DNA of 64,000 bases from Actinomycetota bacterium (GTDB lineage: Bacteria > Actinomycetota > Rubrobacteria > Rubrobacterales > Rubrobacteraceae), in assembly GCA_046732815.1 (NCBI GenBank), contig JBKPNW010000063.1:3370-67369 (forward strand), in the 5' to 3' direction. A program made the position numbers and the translations under genes. Positions 3,805 through 48,525 of the stretch are shown here, piece after piece; the first letter of the stretch is position 1; the number at the start of each line of letters is the position of its first letter. The notes under the pieces were generated by a model. That model was not told the origin of the DNA and searched no databases. It was given only the letters and a program-made list of their open reading frames with translations.

Positions 3805-3974
3805 CGTTCGGCCTTACGGCCTCAGCAAGTCAGCACGCTACGGCCTGCGGCCTCCGCTTGTCAGCACGCCGTCTCGCTTCGCTCGGCGGCTCGTCAGCAT
3901 TTCAGCTTGTCAGCTTTTTGTTCTGGCTGAAATGCTGAAGTGCTGACAAGCCGCGAAGCGGCGTGCTGAAATGC
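3805..3974. repeat. TCAGC/GCTGA-array element E2 with four hairpin modules
   Basis: Starts at the clpS stop. TCAGC arm, T-rich centre, GCTGA arm. The 29-mer at 3941-3969 is the exact reverse complement of 8084-8112 and 14899-14927. Confidence 0.92.
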
Positions 3975-8070: not shown

Positions 8071-8122
8071 GCTGGTCAGCTTGTCAGCACGCCGCTTCGC
8101 GGCTTGTCAGCATTTCAGCTTG
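8071..8122. repeat. TCAGC-array half element E3
   Basis: Four TCAGC units and the GCCGC-GAA-GCGGC module (minus strand), 2 nt after a stop codon. Confidence 0.9.
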
Positions 8123-8193: not shown

Positions 8194-8958
8194 ATGGTAG
8201 TGTTCCTGATCCTGTTGTTGTTCGCTGTTATCTTCCTGGCTGCGGGCGGCGTGCTGCTGTACTTCCGTAACAGGACCAAGCAGAAGTCAGCGCTCATGAG
8301 CCAGACCGAGACCTCCACAGCATCGGAGGTCAGCGGGCTGCCGCCGGGGACGATGGTCGAGGTCAAGGGGATGCTGCGCTGCGAGGAGCCCCTTACCAGC
8401 GAGATGGCCGAGAAAACCTGTGCGTACTACTCTTCCACGGTAACACGAGAGTATCTCAGGCCCGACTACGACGATGATGACAACGACGTCGGGTCGGACC
8501 GGCGCTCCGAGATAATCGCCCAGAACGTGCAGTTCGCGCCCTTTGTCGTAGAGGACGACAGCGGCTCGGCAGCGGTGGACGCGGAAGGCGCCGAGGTCGA
8601 TGCCAGGCAGGTGATGAACCGTTTCGACAGGAACACGGGGAACGAAGGGACCTTCTCGCTCGGCGGGGTGAGCGTCAATCTCAGCGGTGGGGAGCGCACT
8701 ATCGGCTACCGCTACACCGAGAGCATCCTCCCCGTCGACGAGTCGGTCTACGTGCTCGGCACCGTACAGGAGGACGGCGGGATCGGGGCCTCACAGTCCG
8801 GCGAAGAGGGTCATAGTTTCGTCGTCAGCCACCGCTCCGAGGAGGCGCTGAGCCAGAGCCTCGGCAAGACCGTACTCTGGCTCGGCGTGGGAGGCGCCGC
8901 TTCCCTCGTTCTCGGCGTGGTCCTGCTCGTCGTCGGGATCATCTTACTGGTGTCTTGA
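8194..8958 (+). CDS. GIDE-domain-like membrane-anchored protein
   Basis: N- and C-terminal TM helices around a soluble domain with VEVKG..CEEPL.S...CAYY and RYTESILP..ESVYVLG patterns, which I associate with the GIDE family (from memory). Confidence 0.6.
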   Translation: MVVFLILLLFAVIFLAAGGVLLYFRNRTKQKSALMSQTETSTASEVSGLPPGTMVEVKGMLRCEEPLTSEMAEKTCAYYSSTVTREYLRPDYDDDDNDVGSDRRSEIIAQNVQFAPFVVEDDSGSAAVDAEGAEVDARQVMNRFDRNTGNEGTFSLGGVSVNLSGGERTIGYRYTESILPVDESVYVLGTVQEDGGIGASQSGEEGHSFVVSHRSEEALSQSLGKTVLWLGVGGAASLVLGVVLLVVGIILLVS

Positions 8959-9035
8959 CAGCATTTCAGCACGCTACGCCCTCCGGGCTCCGCTTGTCAG
9001 CACTTCAGCTGGTCAGCTTCTTGCTGAATTGCTGA
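8958..9035. repeat. TCAGC/GCTGA-array element E4
   Basis: Begins at a stop codon. TCAGC units, GCCC-GGA-GGGC module, ttctt centre, two GCTGA units. Confidence 0.9.
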
Positions 9036-10606: not shown

Positions 10607-10790
10607 TCGCTCCCTTCGGTCGCTCAGCATGTCAGCTAGTCAGCACGCTCAGGCTTCGCCTGCGTTTGTCAGCATTTCAGCTTTGTCGTGCGCTAGCCCT
10701 TGCTGACTGGCTGACAAGGCGGCAAAGCCGCCGTGCTGACAAGCGAAGCCCGTAGGGCTGAGCGTGCTGAAATGCTGAAGTGCTGACATG
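10607..10790. repeat. TCAGC/GCTGA-array element E6 filling the fadN-fadA gap
   Basis: 11-bp inverted repeat agcatgtcagc (10626-10636) / gctgacatgct (10782-10792), several hairpin modules. The 36-mer at 10735-10770 is identical to 15926-15961. Confidence 0.93.
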
Positions 10791-13163
10791 CTAATTCCTT
10801 CTCGGCTTTCCTGTTTTCAGTAGTGCTTCGATGCGTTCGTGGGTTTTCTCGTTTTTCAGGAGATCCAGGAATGACTTTTTCTCCAGTTTCAGGAGGTATT
10901 CTTCGGGGACCCATTGGGGGAGGGAGAGGTTGCCACCGGTGAGGATGTGGGCAACGTGGCCCGCGATGACGCCGTCGTAGTCACTCGCGTAGTGGCCCCA
11001 TTGCATGGTCTTTACGCCCATTTCGAGCGCGGCCCGGGCGGTTCGGCCCGAGGCGTAGACGTTGTTGCCGTGCTCGGGCGGGGTGTAGCCGTCGGACAGG
11101 TCCTGGACCTCGCGCTTGGCGGCGGAGATGAGGTGGTCCGCGTTCATTACTATGCGGTCGTCTGCGGTGAGGAATCCCATCTCTCTGGCTTCGAGGGCGC
11201 TGGTCGCCGTCTTGGCCAGGGCTATCTGCTCGAAGGCTTTCTGGAGGAAGGGCAGGGGTGGGGTGTTCGGGGCGGTGTGGAGCGGCGGGGAGACGAGGCG
11301 GCGGGCCATCTCTTTGGTGCCCCCACCGGCGGGGATCAGGCCTACCCCGACCTCGACGAGGCCCATATAGGTCTCGCCGGCGGCGACGATGCGGTCCGAG
11401 TGGAGGCAGACCTCGAGTCCCCCGCCGAGGGTCTGGCCGTGCGGGGCGGAGACGACGGGCTTGGGGGCGAACCGAAAGGCCATGAGCAGGTCCTGCAGGG
11501 CCTCAACGCTCTTTTCGATCCCTGCCAGGTCCCCGTTCTGGACGGCGTGGGCCATCTCGCCGAGGTTGGCGCCTACGGAGAAGTTGCGGCCCTCGTTGCC
11601 GATGACTAGCCCGATCACATCGTCGCGCTCCAGCGTCTCTAGCGCCCGGTAGCCCATCTCGACCGTTCCCGCCTCGATGGAGTTGCCCCTGGAGTGGAAT
11701 TCCAGGCACAGCACCCCGTCACCGAGGTCGAGCAGGCTCGCCGAGTCGTTGCTGGCGAGCTCCTGGCCCTGGTCCCGCAGACGGTCGAGGGAGACGTACA
11801 TCGGGTCCTCGCGAACGGGTTCGTACTCCTTGCTTACGGGGCTGAACTGGAGCTCGGTGCCGTTCTCGGTCTTGTAGAAGGCCTCGTTTCCGGCGTCGAG
11901 CATCTCTTTTACCCAGCCGCCGACCTCGATATCCATAGACTCCATGTTCTCGACCGTCTCGCGCACACCGAGCAGGTCCCAGGTTCTAAAGGGTCCGGTC
12001 TGGTAGGCGTATCCCCACTCCATCGCGTGGTCCACGTCCTCGAGGGTGTCGGAGATCTCGGGCACCCGTCGCGAGGCGTAAGCCAGGTACGGATACAGGG
12101 TGTCCCTGATGTAGCGGGCGTGTTTGTCCTCATCGGCTTTCTCTACCAGGAACTGCAGCCTTGCGGCGAGGTCTCCCTGTTGTTGTGCTTCTTTCGCTAC
12201 GGGGATCTCAGGGTTCTCGGCGGGGTGGTGTTCGAAGGTCTCGAGATCCAGGACATCGAAGACGGTCTTGCCATCGCGTCTGTCCCGCTTGTAGAAGCCG
12301 GCTCCGGCCTTGTTGCCGAGCAGGTCCTTCTCCTGCATCTCATGGAGCTTCTGTGGCGGCTCGAGCTCCTCGCGCGACTCGTCTTCGGGGACGGCCTCGT
12401 AGAGGTTCTCGGCCACGGCGATGGCTATGTCCAGCCCGACCTGGTCGTTGAGGCGGAAGGTCGCCGTCTTGGGGTGGCCGATAAGCGGTCCCGTTATGGC
12501 GTCGATCTCCTCGACGCCGTAGCCGTTCTCGAAGGCGTAGCGTGCGGATTGCATGCCGGTGAAGCTCCCGAGGCGGTTGCCGATGAAGTTCGGGGTGTCC
12601 TTGGCGATGACGCCGCCCTTGCCGAGCACGCGTTCTCCGAAGTTACGGATGGCTTCGACTATCTCGGGGTCCGTATCTTCCGTAGGTATGATCTCCATGA
12701 GCTTCAAGTAACGCGGCGGGTTGAAGAAGTGCGTGCCCACGAAACGCTTTTTGAACTCTGGGGACCTTCCCTCGGAGATGCTGTGCAGCGGGATGCCCGA
12801 GGTGTTGGTCGAGATGATGGCGCTCTCTTTCGCCGTATCTTCGACGCGTTGCATGAGCTCTCTTTTGGGTTCGAGCTTCTCGATTATGGCCTCGACGATC
12901 CAATCCGCCTCGCCGACGCGCCCGAAGTGCTCCTCGAAGTTGCCGACCCTGATCCTGTCGGCCACGGTCTCGCCCATCAGCGCGGCTGGCCTGGCGTTCT
13001 TCATCCTGTCGAAGCCGGCCTCCACTACGGCGTTCTTGTCGTCGTCATCCGAGGCTATGTCGAGCAGGTCCACCTCCAGGCCAGCGTTGGCGCAATGGGC
13101 GGCGATGGCGGCGCCCATCGTGCCCGCTCCCAGTACGGCCACCTTCCTGATCCCGTGCGACAT
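10791..13163 (-). CDS. fadN: 3-hydroxyacyl-CoA dehydrogenase / enoyl-CoA hydratase multifunctional enzyme (FadN type)
   Basis: GAGTMG Rossmann motif, STNTSGIP, HFFNPPRY; C-terminal crotonase domain; 790 aa. Confidence 0.9.
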   Translation of the reverse strand: MSHGIRKVAVLGAGTMGAAIAAHCANAGLEVDLLDIASDDDDKNAVVEAGFDRMKNARPAALMGETVADRIRVGNFEEHFGRVGEADWIVEAIIEKLEPKRELMQRVEDTAKESAIISTNTSGIPLHSISEGRSPEFKKRFVGTHFFNPPRYLKLMEIIPTEDTDPEIVEAIRNFGERVLGKGGVIAKDTPNFIGNRLGSFTGMQSARYAFENGYGVEEIDAITGPLIGHPKTATFRLNDQVGLDIAIAVAENLYEAVPEDESREELEPPQKLHEMQEKDLLGNKAGAGFYKRDRRDGKTVFDVLDLETFEHHPAENPEIPVAKEAQQQGDLAARLQFLVEKADEDKHARYIRDTLYPYLAYASRRVPEISDTLEDVDHAMEWGYAYQTGPFRTWDLLGVRETVENMESMDIEVGGWVKEMLDAGNEAFYKTENGTELQFSPVSKEYEPVREDPMYVSLDRLRDQGQELASNDSASLLDLGDGVLCLEFHSRGNSIEAGTVEMGYRALETLERDDVIGLVIGNEGRNFSVGANLGEMAHAVQNGDLAGIEKSVEALQDLLMAFRFAPKPVVSAPHGQTLGGGLEVCLHSDRIVAAGETYMGLVEVGVGLIPAGGGTKEMARRLVSPPLHTAPNTPPLPFLQKAFEQIALAKTATSALEAREMGFLTADDRIVMNADHLISAAKREVQDLSDGYTPPEHGNNVYASGRTARAALEMGVKTMQWGHYASDYDGVIAGHVAHILTGGNLSLPQWVPEEYLLKLEKKSFLDLLKNEKTHERIEALLKTGKPRRN

Positions 13164-13178
13164 GCAGGCCTCCCGATC

Positions 13179-13571
13179 CTATCCGTAGAGCTCTCTGTGC
13201 AAAGACTCGATAGCATCTCTTACCCGCAAGAGGTGGGCCTCGAATCTGCCCTTGATCTCGGCGTACTTCTCTTCCCCCCGCCCCGTTATCTTGTAGAAGC
13301 GCCGGCTCCTCGTATCAGGCCGCTCCCACTCCCCCTCCACATACCCCTTCTCCTCGAGCCGCCGCAAGAGCGGATATACCGTGTTCGGCGAGACGCTCAT
13401 CGTGCCGGCAGAGATCTCACGTATCCGCGCCATGATGCTGTTCCCGTAGGCAGGCTCCTCCCTCACGAGGTGCAAGATCAATAGCGGAAAAACATCCCGC
13501 GTCTTGACCTCGCTCAAGAAGACGTCCTTCGGCGTCGTCCTCTCCACCGAACTTCCCGTCGTTTTTCCCAT
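13179..13571 (-). CDS. PadR family transcriptional regulator
   Basis: YG..I...I.....G.....PNTVYPLLRRLEEKGY and RRFYKIT..GE winged-helix pattern. Confidence 0.9.
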   Translation of the reverse strand: MGKTTGSSVERTTPKDVFLSEVKTRDVFPLLILHLVREEPAYGNSIMARIREISAGTMSVSPNTVYPLLRRLEEKGYVEGEWERPDTRSRRFYKITGRGEEKYAEIKGRFEAHLLRVRDAIESLHRELYG

Positions 13572-13593
13572 CGCCCTCGCTCCCCTCGAAAAC

Positions 13594-13609
13594 TTGTCAA
13601 AATTGATAA
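13594..13609. promoter_or_regulatory. Candidate PadR operator in the divergent padR / acyl-CoA dehydrogenase promoter
   Basis: Imperfect palindrome ttgtcaa-aa-ttgataa in an AT-rich island. Confidence 0.4.
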
Positions 13610-13689
13610 TAACACGGATAATAAGTTTGCGTGGAGGTCCGGGTCCTTATAGAGTTGGGACGCGGAGAGTTCGAGCGAAGGAGGAGCTT

Positions 13690-14889
13690 ATGATCACCGA
13701 CGTCACCCGGTCGTTGGGGACCGACTATTATCTGCTCGACGAGCTATTCACGGAGGAGGAGCGGGAGATCCGGGACCGGGTCAGGGCTTTCGCCGACGCC
13801 GAGGTCATCCCGATAATCAACGATTACTGGGAGAAGGCGGAGTTTCCTTTCGAGCTCGTCCCCAAGGTCGCCGCCCTGAACATCGCGGGCGGCCCTATCG
13901 AGGAGTACGGGTGTCCTGGCATGAGTCAGGTCGCCGCGGGGCTGGTCGCCATAGAGATGGCCCGGGGAGACGGGAGCCTCAACACCTTCTTCGGGGTCCA
14001 TTCCGGGCTCGCGATGGGGACCGTGGCGATCTGCGGTTCCGAGGAGCAGAAGCGGCGGTGGCTCCCCGAGATGGCGCGGATGGAGAAAATCGGGGCCTGG
14101 GGTCTGACGGAGCCCGACCACGGTTCTGACTCCGTGATGCTGGAGAGCACGGCCCGACGCGACGGCGACGGTTGGGTCCTCAACGGTAAGAAGCGTTGGA
14201 TCGGCAACGCCACCTTCGCCGACCTCGTCATCATCTGGGCCCGCGACGTCGAAGACGGGCAGGTCAAAGCCTTCGTGCTCGAAAAAGACGAGAACGGCGA
14301 GCACCATCCCGGCTACTCCACACAGCTGATAAAGGGCAAGATGGGCAAACGCGCCGTCTGGCAGCCGGATATCTATCTAGAAGACGTCTACGTCCCCGAC
14401 GAGAATCGTCTCGAACGGGCCAACACCTTCAAGGACACCAACAAGGTCCTCACCGCCACCCGCAGCGGTGTCGCCTGGGAGGCCATAGGGCACGCCATAG
14501 CCGCCTATGAGGCCGCGCTGCAGTACGCCCAGGAGCGCGTACAGTTCGGCAAGCCCATAGCCTCCTTCCAGCTGATCCAGAACAAGCTCTCCGGCATGCT
14601 GGCGGAGATAACCAACATGCAGCTCATGTGCTACCGCCTCGCCCAGCTCCAGGAGCAGGGCAAGATGACAGGACCCATGGCCTCGTTGGCCAAGATGAAC
14701 AACGCCCGCAAAGCCAAACAAGTCTGCGCCGACGCGAGGGACATCATGGGCGGCAACGGCGTGCTCCTCGAATACCACGTAGCCAGGCACCTCTCTGACA
14801 TGGAGATCGTCTACACGTACGAGGGGACCGACACCATACAGTCGCTCATAGTGGGGCGTGACGTAACCGGCATTTCGGCCTTCGTATAG
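13690..14889 (+). CDS. Acyl-CoA dehydrogenase (glutaryl-CoA dehydrogenase-like)
   Basis: GAWGLTEPDHGSD, LNGKKRWIGN and YTYEGT motifs; RBS gaggag. Confidence 0.92.
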   Translation: MITDVTRSLGTDYYLLDELFTEEEREIRDRVRAFADAEVIPIINDYWEKAEFPFELVPKVAALNIAGGPIEEYGCPGMSQVAAGLVAIEMARGDGSLNTFFGVHSGLAMGTVAICGSEEQKRRWLPEMARMEKIGAWGLTEPDHGSDSVMLESTARRDGDGWVLNGKKRWIGNATFADLVIIWARDVEDGQVKAFVLEKDENGEHHPGYSTQLIKGKMGKRAVWQPDIYLEDVYVPDENRLERANTFKDTNKVLTATRSGVAWEAIGHAIAAYEAALQYAQERVQFGKPIASFQLIQNKLSGMLAEITNMQLMCYRLAQLQEQGKMTGPMASLAKMNNARKAKQVCADARDIMGGNGVLLEYHVARHLSDMEIVYTYEGTDTIQSLIVGRDVTGISAFV

Positions 14890-14892
14890 GGA

Positions 14893-15072
14893 AGCATGTC
14901 AGCACGCCGCTTCGCGGCTTGTCAGCACTTCAGCATGTCAGCTTGAGGCTTCCAAGGATGGCACGTCACCCCGACAAAGGACCTAGCGTAGCGAGGCAAG
15001 CCTTCGCGCGAATGCACGAGAGGCGCATCCGTACCAAGCCGACGCAGGCGGCGTGCTGAAGTGCTGAGCTGC
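14893..15072. repeat. TCAGC/GCTGA-array element E7 with long central spacer
   Basis: TCAGC arm 14893-14943, spacer homologous to that of E8, GCTGA arm ending at the DUF998 stop. Confidence 0.88.
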
Positions 15073-15714
15073 TCATCGCACGCGCGGGGCTGATGGGGTC
15101 CCGGCCTGGCTCCGCAGGTGGATCGCCATCACCTCTACCCACGCCAGCACGTTTGCGAGGAATAGGTAGAAACCCCACTGCCACGGCGAGGCGAGCAGGA
15201 GCACTACATACAGGATTGCGGTGAAAAGGGTGTACGGGGCGTAGCCACGCCACTGTGGGTCTAGCCTCAGCCGCCGCCACCAGAAGAAGAGCGAGAGCAG
15301 GAACGAGAGGACGAGGAGGACAAAGGCCAGGAAGTGGATCGCACCGTGCCAGGTCTGGAGGCCCTGCATGGGGTAGGGGTCGGTCTTGAAGGCCGCTAGT
15401 ATCAGGGCAACGCCGGAGACCACGAGGAGCGCGGGCCCGGCCCAAGAGAACCTTCCTCGAGACGCCACTCCGCGGTGGAGACCGAGCGCGAAGAAGATCA
15501 GGGTGAGGCCGAAGAAGGCGAAGTTCAACACCTGCAGCCAACCCAGAGGTCCGAGGGCCAGATCGCTCGGCCAAGGCACGTCGGAGGCCCCCAGAGGCTT
15601 CCATCCCAACCCGAGCATGAAGCCATACTGGGCGAAGGTCAAGACAACCACCCCAAGCGCGAACACGATCGGTCCTACCATACCGGCCAGAGCCGCGTTC
15701 CTGGACGACACCAT
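15073..15714 (-). CDS. DUF998 family membrane protein
   Basis: Six TM segments; S.L..GP.GWLQ..NF, F.TDP and HG..H patterns. Confidence 0.7.
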   Translation of the reverse strand: MVSSRNAALAGMVGPIVFALGVVVLTFAQYGFMLGLGWKPLGASDVPWPSDLALGPLGWLQVLNFAFFGLTLIFFALGLHRGVASRGRFSWAGPALLVVSGVALILAAFKTDPYPMQGLQTWHGAIHFLAFVLLVLSFLLSLFFWWRRLRLDPQWRGYAPYTLFTAILYVVLLLASPWQWGFYLFLANVLAWVEVMAIHLRSQAGTPSAPRVR

Positions 15715-15776
15715 CTCGTCTCCTATCCCTTTTCCCTACGGTCATAGTGCCACCAACCGAAAACCCGCGCATCTTT

Positions 15777-15994
15777 ACAGCACGCTTCGGGCCTTGCAGG
15801 CCCTCGCTTGTCAGCATGTCAGCTAGAGGCAGCCGAGGGCACGAGTTTCCCCGACAACCGATCGGGAATGGCGAGCGAATCCGTAAGGCGAATGCAAGGT
15901 CCGTCCATCCGTACTAAGCTGACTAGCTGACAAGCGAAGCCCGTAGGGCTGAGCGTGCTGACTTGCTGAAATGCCAAGCGACCGAAGGGAGCGA
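15777..15994. repeat. TCAGC/GCTGA-array element E8 with long central spacer and terminal RBS hairpin
   Basis: Same architecture as E7. Ends in agcgaccgaagggagcga (15977-15994), the exact reverse complement of 10607-10624. Confidence 0.9.
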
Positions 15995-15996
15995 CC

Positions 15997-17013
15997 TTGA
16001 AAGCGATTCGATTGCACGAACTCGAGGGGCCTGACGAGATCGTTTATGAGGACGTGCCTGAGCCGGAGCCGGGGCCGGGTGAGACCGTGGTGCGGCTGCG
16101 GGCGGCGGCGCTGAATCGACGGGATCTGTTCGCGACGCAGGGGCAGTATCCCGGTGTTACGCCGGATATTTTGCCGATGATTCCGGGCTCCGATGGGTCA
16201 GGGGAGGTCGTTGCGCGCGGAGAGGGTGCGGAGGGGCCTGATGAGGGGACCGAGGTCGTCATAGACCCGGCGCTGTACTGGGGGGATAACCCGCGGGTGC
16301 CCGGCAAGGAGTACCGGATCCTCGGTATTCCTGACGACGGCACCTTCGCCCAGTTCATCAAGGTGCCGGCGGATCATGTTTTCCCCAAGCCCTCGCATCT
16401 TTCACACGAGGAGGCCGCGGCGTTACCGCTTGCTGCCCTGACGGCCTATCGGGCGCTCGTGACGCGCGGCGGGGTCGCGGAGGGCGAGACCGTGCTCGTG
16501 CCCGGTGTTGGCGGCGGGGTGGCGACGTTTCTGGTCCAGATCGCCAGCGCTTTGGGCGCCCGCGTGTTCGTCACCTCGGGGAGCGACGAGAAGATCGAAG
16601 AGTCGAAAGAGTTCGGCGCGGAGGGGGGTGTCAACTACAACGCGGAGGATTGGAGCAAGGAGCTCAAGGGCATGTCGGGGGGTGTCGACCTCTCGACCGA
16701 CCACGTCGGTGGCGAGAACTTCAACGCCCTCGTCTCGCTCGCCAAACCTGGCGGCCGGATCGTCGTGATCGGCGCGACGGCCGGCCCGACGTCGAAGGCT
16801 ATGACGATCCGCATAGCGCTCAAGCAGCTCGACGTGCTGGGGACGGCGATGGGAACACCTGAAGAGTTCGGCGCGATGCTCGACCTCTACGCCGAGCACG
16901 GCCTGCGCCCCATGATAAACGAGACCTTCGCCCTCGAAGAGACATCCTCGGCCCTCCATCTTATGCAAGAAGGTAGCGGGATGGGCAAGATCGTCCTCGA
17001 TATACCCGCGTAG
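15997..17013 (+). CDS. MDR-family NADPH:quinone oxidoreductase / zinc-binding dehydrogenase-like protein
   Basis: AAALNRRD, PGSDGSGEV, GGGVATF and GKIVL; TTG start. Confidence 0.9.
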   Translation: MKAIRLHELEGPDEIVYEDVPEPEPGPGETVVRLRAAALNRRDLFATQGQYPGVTPDILPMIPGSDGSGEVVARGEGAEGPDEGTEVVIDPALYWGDNPRVPGKEYRILGIPDDGTFAQFIKVPADHVFPKPSHLSHEEAAALPLAALTAYRALVTRGGVAEGETVLVPGVGGGVATFLVQIASALGARVFVTSGSDEKIEESKEFGAEGGVNYNAEDWSKELKGMSGGVDLSTDHVGGENFNALVSLAKPGGRIVVIGATAGPTSKAMTIRIALKQLDVLGTAMGTPEEFGAMLDLYAEHGLRPMINETFALEETSSALHLMQEGSGMGKIVLDIPA

Positions 17014-33122: not shown

Positions 33123-33232
33123 GCTAGTCAGCGGGTCAGCACGGCGATTCGCGCCTTGTCAGCCGGTCAGCAAAAACAAAAAGCTGAAATGCTGAAGTGC
33201 TGAAGTGCTGACTAGCCGGCGACTGAAAGGAG
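33123..33232. repeat. TCAGC/GCTGA-array element E9 with terminal RBS hairpin
   Basis: Perfect 10-bp terminal inverted repeat gctagtcagc (33123) / gctgactagc (33207-33216), A-rich centre, then gcgactgaaaggag. Confidence 0.92.
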
Positions 33233-48453: not shown

Positions 48454-48525
48454 GCCGATCAGCCGGTCAGCAATTCAGCTTGTCAGGTTTTTGATCTGGC
48501 TGACATGCTGAGCGGCTGACTGACC
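48454..48525. repeat. TCAGC/GCTGA-array element E10
   Basis: tcagc-cgg-tcagc-aat-tcagc-ttg-tcagg, T-rich centre, gctga-cat-gctga-gcg-gctga. Confidence 0.9.

What the first reader, a model, noticed from the sequence alone, without database searches (positions are those of the whole stretch)
14938..15923. Two element spacers share conserved blocks separated by fixed-length, fully variable blocks
Seen: the centres of E7 (about 14969-15043) and E8 (about 15849-15923) align without indels over about 75 nt as CCCCGACAA-[13]-GCGAG-[12]-GCGAATGCA-[9]-CATCCGTAC-N-AAGC-N-GAC. The blocks are identical, while the bracketed parts are mostly different (aggacctagcgta/ccgatcgggaatg; gcaagccttcgc/cgaatccgtaag; cgagaggcg/aggtccgtc), and the first two contain their own mini-palindromes. 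Uniform neutral decay would not give this pattern. Inference: a scaffold under selection for sequence and spacing, such as a structured ncRNA, a multi-site protein-binding array, or (speculatively) a guide-like RNA with programmable segments. On the minus strand the blocks are codon-aligned after a shared ATG (MRLSCIRAKACLATLGPLSG vs MDGPCIRLTDSLAIPDRLSG), but the near absence of synonymous change argues for nucleotide-level constraint.
Basis: partly seen in the sequence, partly recalled or inferred. Interest (0 to 1): 0.62.

Follow-up and report, generated by a model that had tools for sequence, protein, structure and literature searches.

The report
Diverged copies of an intergenic promoter-like module
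The two look-alike stretches are old, diverged copies of a low-copy intergenic module of soil Rubrobacteraceae, probably a decayed terminator hairpin plus a promoter-like tail for the next gene, and not a guide-like RNA with programmable segments.

Summary
E7 (14969-15043) and E8 (15849-15923) align without gaps at 51/75 identity, as identical 9/5/9/9-nt blocks separated by 13/12/9-nt stretches that are only 35% identical.

The interpretation does not hold. The core is a family with 3 copies in this genome and 1-3 copies in 24 of 33 genomes of the genus. Across 31 other copies the "variable" blocks (0.72-0.77 column identity) are about as conserved as blocks 1 and 2 (0.71-0.80). Only the 3' end, CATCCGTAC-TAAGCTGA, stands out (0.94-0.98).

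E7 and E8 belong to two separate, well-supported lineages, and each is about 75% identical to the genus consensus. I found:
- no convincing RNA structure or covariation;
- no coding signal on either strand;
- no Rfam match;
- no match of the variable blocks to the flanks.

Across Rubrobacteraceae the acyl-CoA dehydrogenase / MDR oxidoreductase spacer carries a GC-rich terminator-like hairpin. This is followed by a conserved tail with a TANNNT hexamer (TAAGCT), 28-103 nt before the oxidoreductase start.

Best reading: E8 is the working promoter/leader region. E7 is a relic that lost TAAGCT through a 16-nt deletion. The promoter role is inferred and has not been shown.

The parts
14939..15042 (+). 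E7 core: a copy of the ~104-nt apex module. It lies between the convergent acyl-CoA dehydrogenase and DUF998 genes.
   Evidence: CM R1 match at 95.4 bits and nhmmer E=2.5e-21. It groups with the E7-locus orthologue L123 and with L079 at 99/94 support.
15820..15922 (+). E8 core: a copy of the same module, orthologous to the single element upstream of the MDR oxidoreductase in relatives.
   Evidence: CM R1 match at 82.8 bits. It falls in a clade with the OXI-locus copies L021/L022/L023/L060/L133 at 91/99 support. Synteny is shown.
15888..15922 (+). The constrained 3' tail of E8: GCGAATGCA-N9-CATCCGTAC-TAAGCTGA. TAAGCT (15915-15920) is the putative -10 hexamer (TANNNT), 76 nt before the oxidoreductase start.
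   Evidence: Column identity is 0.84 (B3), 0.94 (B4) and 0.98 (tail) in 31 other copies. T[AT][AT]GCT is kept in 37 of 51 orthologous spacers at 28-103 nt from the start. This stretch has no indels.
15008..15040 (+). The corresponding tail of E7. B3 and B4 are intact, but CAAGCC stands where the other copies have TAAGCT.
   Evidence: The E7-locus orthologue L123 keeps CATCCGTACTAAGCTGACTGGCTGA before the same CAAGCCGCCGCAGGCGGCG hairpin, so E7 has a 16-nt (two-octamer) deletion.
15850..15866 (+). Short hairpin CCCGA-CAACCGA-TCGGG in E8. It is a remnant of the long GC-rich terminator-like hairpin of more distant orthologues, whose loop reads GGCAAC. The hairpin is disrupted in E7 (14970-14986).
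   Evidence: Folds of the orthologous spacers are. Pair counts for helix 1 are 77% paired with a few double changes, which is weak support.
14890..14946 (.). E7 left arm: TCAGC units repeated with an 8-nt period plus a side hairpin. It starts right after the dehydrogenase stop codon.
15041..15072 (.). E7 right arm (shortened): a GCAGGCGGCG side hairpin and GCTGA octamers. It abuts the DUF998 stop codon.
15777..15824 (.). E8 left arm (octamers plus side hairpin).
   Evidence: (I1).
15915..15975 (.). E8 right arm (GCTGA octamers plus side hairpin). It is followed by the conserved GCGACCGAAGGGAGCGAC ribosome-binding region (15977-15994).
15073..15714 (-). DUF998 membrane-protein gene flanked by E7 and E8. 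It is present between the two conserved genes in only a few relatives.
   Evidence: Pfam PF06197, E=6e-17. Presence and absence across relatives is shown.
13504..14889 (+). Acyl-CoA dehydrogenase gene upstream of E7.
   Evidence: Pfam Acyl-CoA_dh_N/M/1.
15997..17013 (+). MDR zinc-type dehydrogenase / quinone-oxidoreductase-like gene downstream of E8.
   Evidence: Pfam ADH_N and ADH_zinc_N. 56 related loci were found.

Best explanation
E7 and E8 are two anciently diverged paralogues of a low-copy, ~104-nt intergenic module. The module sits at the apex of the octamer-armed palindromic repeats of an uncultured Rubrobacteraceae genus.

It descends from the spacer between the acyl-CoA dehydrogenase and MDR oxidoreductase genes. 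In more distant relatives that spacer is a GC-rich terminator-like hairpin followed by a conserved 30-45-nt tail.

Only the tail is under strong sequence and spacing constraint: GCGAA(A/T)GC-N9/10-CATCCGTAC-TAAGCTGA. I infer that it is the promoter and/or regulator-binding site of the downstream gene, with TAAGCT as a TANNNT -10 hexamer. The 9-nt 'variable block 3' would then be promoter spacer.

E8 is the working copy in front of the oxidoreductase. E7 lies between convergent genes, has lost TAAGCT through a two-octamer deletion, and probably matters only through its arms, as a hairpin between two gene ends.

The alternating identical and different blocks arise because two old lineages each deviated from a common consensus in different short patches. 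They are not programmable windows.

Shown: homology, copy number, orthology, the two lineages, the conservation profile, and the absence of coding and structure signals. Inferred: the promoter/operator role, the terminator role of the hairpin, and the history of DUF998 loss by recombination between E7 and E8.
For: Family and copy number:
- 3 copies in this genome: E7, E8 and C295:8772-8871, the last upstream of deoD.
- 1-3 copies in 24 of 33 genomes of the genus and in 4 genomes of other genera.

Orthology:
- In about 45 relatives the dehydrogenase and oxidoreductase are adjacent, with one element between them.
- T[AT][AT]GCT is kept in 37 of 51 spacers, even where the arms use other octamers such as TCAGG or TGAGG.
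- Distant orthologues have 12-20-bp GC hairpins (about -25 to -56 kcal/mol folds of the spacer) upstream of the tail.

Natural splits of the module:
- Genes inserted in L063 and L065, and a 7.4-kb insert in G003, separate the hairpin half from the tail half. The hairpin half stays with the dehydrogenase and the tail half stays with the oxidoreductase.

Context and orientation:
- At about 11 distinct loci the core is co-oriented with the upstream gene.
- At about 8 of these, a same-strand gene starts roughly 50-110 nt downstream. These genes are OXI, two SDRs, MoaC, DeoD, a sulfatase, an OtsA-like gene and a TPR gene.

Conservation profile:
- B4 0.94 and tail 0.98, against 0.71-0.80 for B1, V1, B2, V2 and V3.
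- No indels in the last ~35 nt.

Two lineages:
- E7 groups with L123 and L079 (99/94). E8 groups with L021/22/23/60/133 (91/99).
- E7 and E8 are 64% identical to each other but about 75% identical to the consensus.

Loss in E7: TAAGCT is gone through a 16-nt deletion.
Against:
- The consensus sigma-70 scan finds no promoter in 14800-16100. TAAGCT matches TATAAT at only 3 of 6 positions, and no recognisable -35 hexamer lies at 16-19 nt.
- 17 consecutive nearly invariant bases are more than a -10 element needs.
- Three genus members keep the intact tail downstream of an NDH-2-like gene with no same-strand gene after it.
- Co-orientation with the upstream gene could also reflect replication-strand bias of a mobile element.
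- In some relatives the two genes are only 19 nt apart, so an internal promoter is not obligatory.
Confidence: 0.6

Rival explanations
1. The core is a structured non-coding or cis-regulatory RNA (3'-UTR or 5'-leader element). Its conserved blocks would be single-stranded recognition sequences and its variable blocks would be stems.
For: The core is co-oriented with transcription of the upstream gene at all loci examined. Three short hairpins can be drawn with a few compensatory changes, for example CCCGG/CCGGG changing to CCCGA/TCGGG in E8. Length is conserved within the genus.
Against: The RNAalifold consensus is only -2.2 kcal/mol. Paired cells are 82.7% against 81.2% in shuffles (48/500 shuffles as high), and 19/500 shuffles reach the covariation score. 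The centroid folds of E7 and E8 leave the core mostly unpaired. There is no Rfam hit even at E<=5. The most conserved part is a 17-nt linear sequence, and the distance to the start codon varies from 28 to 103 nt.
Confidence: 0.12
2. The invariant 17-mer CATCCGTACTAAGCTGA at the junction of apex and right arm is the recognition or cleavage site of a recombinase or transposase that copies the module between octamer-armed elements. The orientation bias would then reflect the replication strand.
For: The ~100-nt core is found at about 11 unrelated loci within one genus. The junction is the most conserved part. Insertions recur at the same place inside the module. In G003 the two halves both end in CGAG.
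Against: Copy number is only 1-3 per genome. The oxidoreductase-locus copy is vertically inherited across the family, and its divergence tracks that of the protein. The other apex types of the same arms have different junction sequences. No transposase gene is adjacent. In species whose arms are CCTGA-type the motif is retained without matching arms.
Confidence: 0.12
3. A guide-like RNA (bridge-RNA or omega-RNA style) whose fixed-length variable segments are programmable.
For: Only the pairwise pattern of identical blocks and divergent fixed-length stretches.
Against: The variable blocks have no complementary or identical matches in the flanks, and none in the genome beyond chance. They are 0.72-0.77 conserved among 31 other copies. 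No recombinase or nuclease gene is nearby. There is no structural support.
Confidence: 0.02
4. A ~20-aa peptide is encoded in the core. The candidates are minus strand MRLSCIRAKACLATLGPLSG / MDGPCIRLTDSLAIPDRLSG, or plus strand MASESLARMHGARIRTKL.
For: Open frames with an ATG exist in most copies on both strands.
Against: Column variability has no 3-nt periodicity; the phase means are 0.55/0.62/0.61 and 0.65/0.47/0.62. Start codons are lost (E7 GTA, L012 ACG, L017 ATA). In-frame stops occur in L017 and L058. The position of the minus-strand stop varies, and distant orthologues lack the ATG.
Confidence: 0.03

Closest known systems
REP/BIME-type mosaic palindromic intergenic repeats of enterobacteria (comparison from my own knowledge, not tested here)
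   Same: Intergenic and palindromic. Modular, with arms plus interchangeable internal motifs. Placed right after stop codons. Plausible roles as transcript-end hairpins.
   Different: The arms here are arrays of an 8-nt-period unit (NNTCAGCN) with side hairpins, and the unit differs between species. The E7/E8 apex is low-copy (1-3 per genome) and is orthologously conserved at one locus across a family. No REP-associated transposase (RAYT) was looked for.
MITEs with regulatory cargo, e.g. Neisseria Correia elements that carry outward promoters and form hairpins in mRNA (from my own knowledge)
   Same: Inverted-repeat arms that fold in read-through RNA. A promoter-like sequence faces the downstream gene. 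Copies occur in front of unrelated genes.
   Different: No target-site duplication was shown. The core has very low copy number and has resided at one locus for a long time. Promoter activity is untested.
An ordinary bacterial intergenic region consisting of an intrinsic terminator followed by the next gene's promoter
   Same: In distant orthologues a GC-rich hairpin with a T-containing tail follows the dehydrogenase, and a conserved TANNNT-bearing tail precedes the oxidoreductase. Inserted genes separate the two halves cleanly.
   Different: In this genus the whole unit has been copied to other loci, is wrapped in repeat arms, and the hairpin has decayed to 5 bp.
IS110 bridge RNA / IS1111 seekRNA / TnpB-IscB guide RNAs
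   Same: Only the superficial alternation of constant and different segments.
   Different: No adjacent recombinase or nuclease, no complementarity of the variable parts to flanks, and no supported structure.

Membership tests
Guide/bridge-type RNA of a mobile element | Encoded next to (usually upstream of) its recombinase or nuclease gene | tested here: not met
   The neighbours are an acyl-CoA dehydrogenase, a DUF998 membrane protein and an MDR dehydrogenase. Other copies sit beside SDR, MoaC, DeoD, sulfatase and NDH-2 genes.
Guide/bridge-type RNA of a mobile element | Variable segments complementary or identical to target or donor flanks | tested here: not met
   V1, V2 and V3 of both copies have no match within the local region, and none in the genome beyond expectation.
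Structured ncRNA / Rfam family | Match to a curated covariance model | tested here: not met
   0 hits at the gathering threshold on the whole window. At E<=5 over 14860-16020 there was only an unrelated 13-bit hit.
Structured ncRNA / Rfam family | Conserved secondary structure supported by covariation | tested here: inconclusive
   The alifold energy is -2.2 kcal/mol. For the three named helices, 19/500 shuffles reach the covariation score, and paired cells are 82.7% against 81.2% in shuffles. The alignment has only 15 sequences.
Small protein gene | Conserved start and stop codons, and third-codon-position excess of variation | tested here: not met
   no periodicity, lost starts, and internal stops on both strands.
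Sigma-70-type (actinobacterial sigma-A) promoter | A -10 hexamer TANNNT conserved at a fixed place in orthologues | tested here: met
   TAAGCT or TATGCT is found in 37 of 51 orthologous spacers and in nearly all paralogous copies. That TANNNT is the consensus is established knowledge, not tested here.
Sigma-70-type (actinobacterial sigma-A) promoter | A -35 hexamer 16-19 nt upstream | tested here: not met
   The consensus scan finds no promoter. The hexamer at that distance reads A(A/T)GC(A/G)C.
Sigma-70-type (actinobacterial sigma-A) promoter | A transcription start 5-10 nt downstream of the -10 element | not testable with these tools
Intrinsic terminator | A GC-rich stem-loop followed by a T/U tract after a gene end | tested here: inconclusive
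   Distant orthologues have strong hairpins followed by TTTCG or CTCGTTTG. In E7 and E8 only a 5-bp remnant is left, and the scan finds no terminator. The long arm-arm stem could substitute for it.
MITE / palindromic repeat element | Inverted-repeat arms and many copies in the genome | tested here: met
   There are 378 clusters of period-8 TCAGC units, 224-225 of them with inverted arrays. The E7/E8 core itself has only 3 copies.
MITE / palindromic repeat element | Target-site duplication and filled/empty sites | not tested
   Not examined.

The most novel reading that the evidence does not exclude
The module is a portable, orientation-locked terminator-plus-promoter cassette. It would be moved between octamer-armed foldback repeats by recombination within the near-identical arms. 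Its invariant 17-mer CATCCGTACTAAGCTGA would be the site of a dedicated regulator (or an alternative sigma factor). This would wire a small set of oxidoreductase and other genes (MDR, two SDRs, MoaC, DeoD, sulfatase, OtsA-like) into one regulon in this genus.
Probability: 0.15. Interest if true: 0.55.

Novelty: new member of a known kind. Interest (0 to 1): 0.27.

Why it matters
As posed (a scaffold with programmable segments) the finding would have been exciting, but the evidence is against it.

What remains is modest. It is a clear case in which a two-sequence comparison exaggerates a block pattern that a 30-sequence alignment dissolves.

It also yields a conserved 17-35-nt motif that is a ready candidate promoter/operator for Rubrobacteraceae, a group with no mapped promoters that I know of.

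The pair also records locus history. Both core lineages survive as single elements in different species. This suggests repeated loss of the DUF998 gene by recombination between the flanking repeats.

Tried and rejected
- Exact block patterns in the genome found only the two copies. blastn-short found nothing else. A profile was needed to find the third copy.
- Rfam at the gathering threshold and at E<=5: nothing.
- RNAalifold on 15 cores, and a hand-named three-hairpin structure: weak.
- Both peptide readings: rejected.
- Guide/flank complementarity: rejected.
- An ECF-sigma-type reading (GCGAAT-N16-CGTA): considered. No similar sites lie upstream of other genes in the genome, and the -35-like bases vary among copies (GAG, GAC, GGA), so it is left only as a lead.
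- The sigma-70 and terminator consensus scan of the region: no sites.
- Literature search for Rubrobacter intergenic palindromic repeats: nothing relevant.
- Look-up of earlier notes by sequence: nothing.
- The 91-nt apex family was aligned as a comparison. It showed no strong consensus fold either.

Full report
**Observation.** Between 14887 and 15996 the window holds two palindromic intergenic elements. E7 lies after the stop codon of an acyl-CoA dehydrogenase gene. E8 lies before an MDR zinc-type dehydrogenase gene. Together they flank a minus-strand DUF998 membrane-protein gene.

Over 75 nt there are 51 identities. Inside the three separating stretches only 12 of 34 positions match.

The similarity is not chance. 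The two-block pattern occurs twice against 0.03 expected, and a 44-nt pattern with up to 3 mismatches finds nine more copies in seven other genomes of the genus.

The clustering of matches is statistically modest. Permutation gives p=0.11 and p=0.22 for general clustering measures, and 0.003 only for 'three runs of 9 or more'.

**Setting.** The genome is a 3.4-Mb, 64% GC draft of an uncultured Rubrobacteraceae bacterium. It carries about 378 clusters of TCAGC units repeated with an 8-nt period, and 224 of these form inverted arrays. Between the arrays lies an 'apex' of preferred lengths: 11, 20, ~50 or ~91 nt. E7 and E8 are two such elements with a special ~104-nt apex. When folded as RNA the arms pair into a long stem, and the apex stays largely unpaired in the centroid structure.

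**The apex is a family.** A profile of the core finds three copies in this genome: E7, E8 and one upstream of deoD on another contig. A covariance model finds 1-3 copies in 24 of 33 genomes of the genus and single copies in four other genera. A metagenome scan for the 17-mer adds about 21 Rubrobacteraceae-like loci.

The copies lie at about 11 distinct loci:
- the dehydrogenase-oxidoreductase spacer (most genomes);
- downstream of an NDH-2-like gene;
- upstream of two different SDR genes;
- upstream of moaC, deoD, a sulfatase gene, an OtsA-like gene and a TPR gene;
- one copy with a decayed tail;
- E7.

In all of them the core points the same way as the upstream gene. In about eight, a gene on the same strand starts roughly 50-110 nt downstream.

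**What the larger alignment shows.** Within the genus the copies are 100-105 nt long with 0-4 indel positions. Conservation is not block-like. Over 31 other copies the mean column identity is:
- B1 0.80, V1 0.77, B2 0.71, V2 0.75, B3 0.84, V3 0.72;
- B4 0.94 and the following TAAGCTGA 0.98.

E7 and E8 are 64% identical to each other but about 75% identical to the genus consensus. Inside the 'variable' blocks each keeps about two thirds of the consensus. E7 deviates in V1 and the start of V2. E8 deviates in the end of V2 and in V3.

A maximum-likelihood tree puts E7 with the E7-locus orthologue from a metagenome contig and with the single element of another species (99/94 support). It puts E8 in a different clade with five single oxidoreductase-locus elements (91/99).

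So the two copies are old paralogues. The striking pairwise pattern is the overlay of two independent sets of patchy changes on a common sequence. Only the 3' third of that sequence is strongly constrained.

- Structured RNA: the RNAalifold consensus is -2.2 kcal/mol. Three short hairpins that can be drawn by eye have 82.7% paired cells against 81.2% in column shuffles, and marginal covariation. Rfam gives nothing.
- Guide-like segments: the variable blocks match nothing in the flanks or elsewhere beyond chance. No recombinase is nearby.
- Peptide: neither the minus-strand frame nor a plus-strand frame shows codon periodicity. Starts and stops are not conserved.

**What it most likely is.** In about 45 relatives the dehydrogenase and oxidoreductase genes are adjacent, separated by 19-260 nt. 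In the more distant genera the spacer is a 12-20-bp GC-rich hairpin followed by a T-containing stretch. After that comes a conserved tail ending in ...CCGTACTAAGCTG or ...GAAAACCATTAAGCTG.

The hexamer T[AT][AT]GCT fits the actinobacterial -10 consensus TANNNT (established knowledge). It is present in 37 of 51 spacers, 28-103 nt before the start codon. It persists where the flanking arms are built from other octamers (TCAGG, TGAGG, CCAGC) and so cannot be explained as part of the arms.

When other genes have been inserted between the two conserved genes, the hairpin half stays next to the dehydrogenase and the tail half stays next to the oxidoreductase. This holds for a plus-strand membrane gene in L063 and L065 and for a 7.4-kb segment in G003.

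This is what a terminator for the first gene plus a promoter or leader for the second would predict. In the window's genus the hairpin has shrunk to CCCGG-N7-CCGGG, which reads CCCGA...TCGGG in E8. Its loop, GGCAAC, is still recognisable.

I therefore read B3-V3-B4-TAAGCT as promoter or operator DNA, with V3 as length-constrained spacer. I read B1-V1 as the terminator remnant. The promoter role is an inference:
- the consensus scan finds no sigma-70 promoter, and there is no good -35;
- 17 invariant bases suggest an additional protein site;
- read data could not be consulted.

**E7 versus E8.** E8 keeps the complete tail 76 nt before the oxidoreductase start. E7 reads CAAGCC where TAAGCT should be. 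Compared with its orthologue L123 and with L014, E7 lacks exactly 16 nt (two octamers, TAAGCTGA+NNGCTGA) in front of the same CAAGCCGCCGCAGGCGGCG side hairpin. E7 lies between convergent genes, so a promoter there would have nothing to drive. Its arms may still serve as a hairpin at two gene ends.

Relatives that carry DUF998 have lost E7 partly or wholly. L058 has a deletion running from the left arm into the 3' end of DUF998. L062 keeps only arm remnants. L084 has a 46-nt spacer.

Both the E7-type and the E8-type cores occur as the single element in species without DUF998. The simplest history is an ancestral dehydrogenase-E7-DUF998-E8-oxidoreductase arrangement, from which DUF998 was lost repeatedly by recombination between the directly repeated elements. 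This is inference.

**Comparison with known systems and novelty.** The arms resemble REP/BIME or MITE-type palindromic repeats in behaviour. The apex behaves like an ordinary terminator/promoter spacer that has been copied a few times. It is not a member of any Rfam family and not a guide RNA. I rate it a new member of a known kind (an intergenic repeat with regulatory cargo), of modest interest. The octamer-armed repeat family itself is the more unusual feature, and it is the subject of another note.

Noticed in passing
Whole genome (G000); in the window at about 947-1006, 3820-3948, 8074-8119, 8956-9030, 10622-10796, 33126-33213, 48459-48513, 56609: There are about 378 clusters of NNTCAGCN octamers with an 8-nt period, 224 of them as inverted arrays. 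Apex lengths peak at 11 nt (A5CA5-like), 20 nt (AAGGGCTNGCGCAAGCGAAA), ~50 nt and ~91 nt. Small GC hairpins are inserted between octamers.
   Followed up: partly
Other contigs of G000 (e.g. C64:18338-18429, C272:6822-6913); not in the window: A second apex family of 91-92 nt has at least 21 copies (AGTCGTC..GAGCGTAGAAC..GGTTCCTCGTGCGCGGCAGGGCGAG..GGGAGAA). It also has fixed length, with more and less conserved stretches. No strong consensus fold was found with alifold.
   Followed up: partly
Orthologous spacers L038, L041, L048, L035, L026, L054: At the same locus, other Rubrobacteraceae species have arms built from different octamers (TCAGG, TGAGG/CCTCA, CCAGC, TCAGC). Left and right arms change together, while the apex tail stays the same. 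The arms therefore evolve in concert within each genome.
   Followed up: no
G003:C319 1947-2021 and 9376-9468 (L104, L082): A ~7.4-kb segment, which includes a glycosyltransferase-like gene, splits the core between its hairpin half and its tail half. Both halves end or begin with CGAG, which may be a 4-nt duplication.
   Followed up: no
L063 and L065: A plus-strand membrane-protein gene of about 200 aa is inserted between the terminator hairpin and the TAAGCT tail of the same spacer in two more distant species.
   Followed up: no
window 15977-15994 and all orthologous loci: The sequence GCGACCGAAGGGAGCGAC, just before the oxidoreductase start, is conserved across the family. It recurs before other genes, for example deoD on C295 as GACGACGAAGGGAGTCGC.
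   Followed up: no
window 15878-15914: E8 contains TCCGT three times (GAATCCGTAAG, AGGTCCGTCCA, CCATCCGTACT). Its deviating patches resemble the neighbouring conserved block, which hints at templated multi-base changes rather than point mutations.
   Followed up: no
L100 (G020:C1 about 146350): One moaC-locus copy starts directly after what looks like the 3' end of a tRNA gene (GGTTCGATTCCC...).
   Followed up: no
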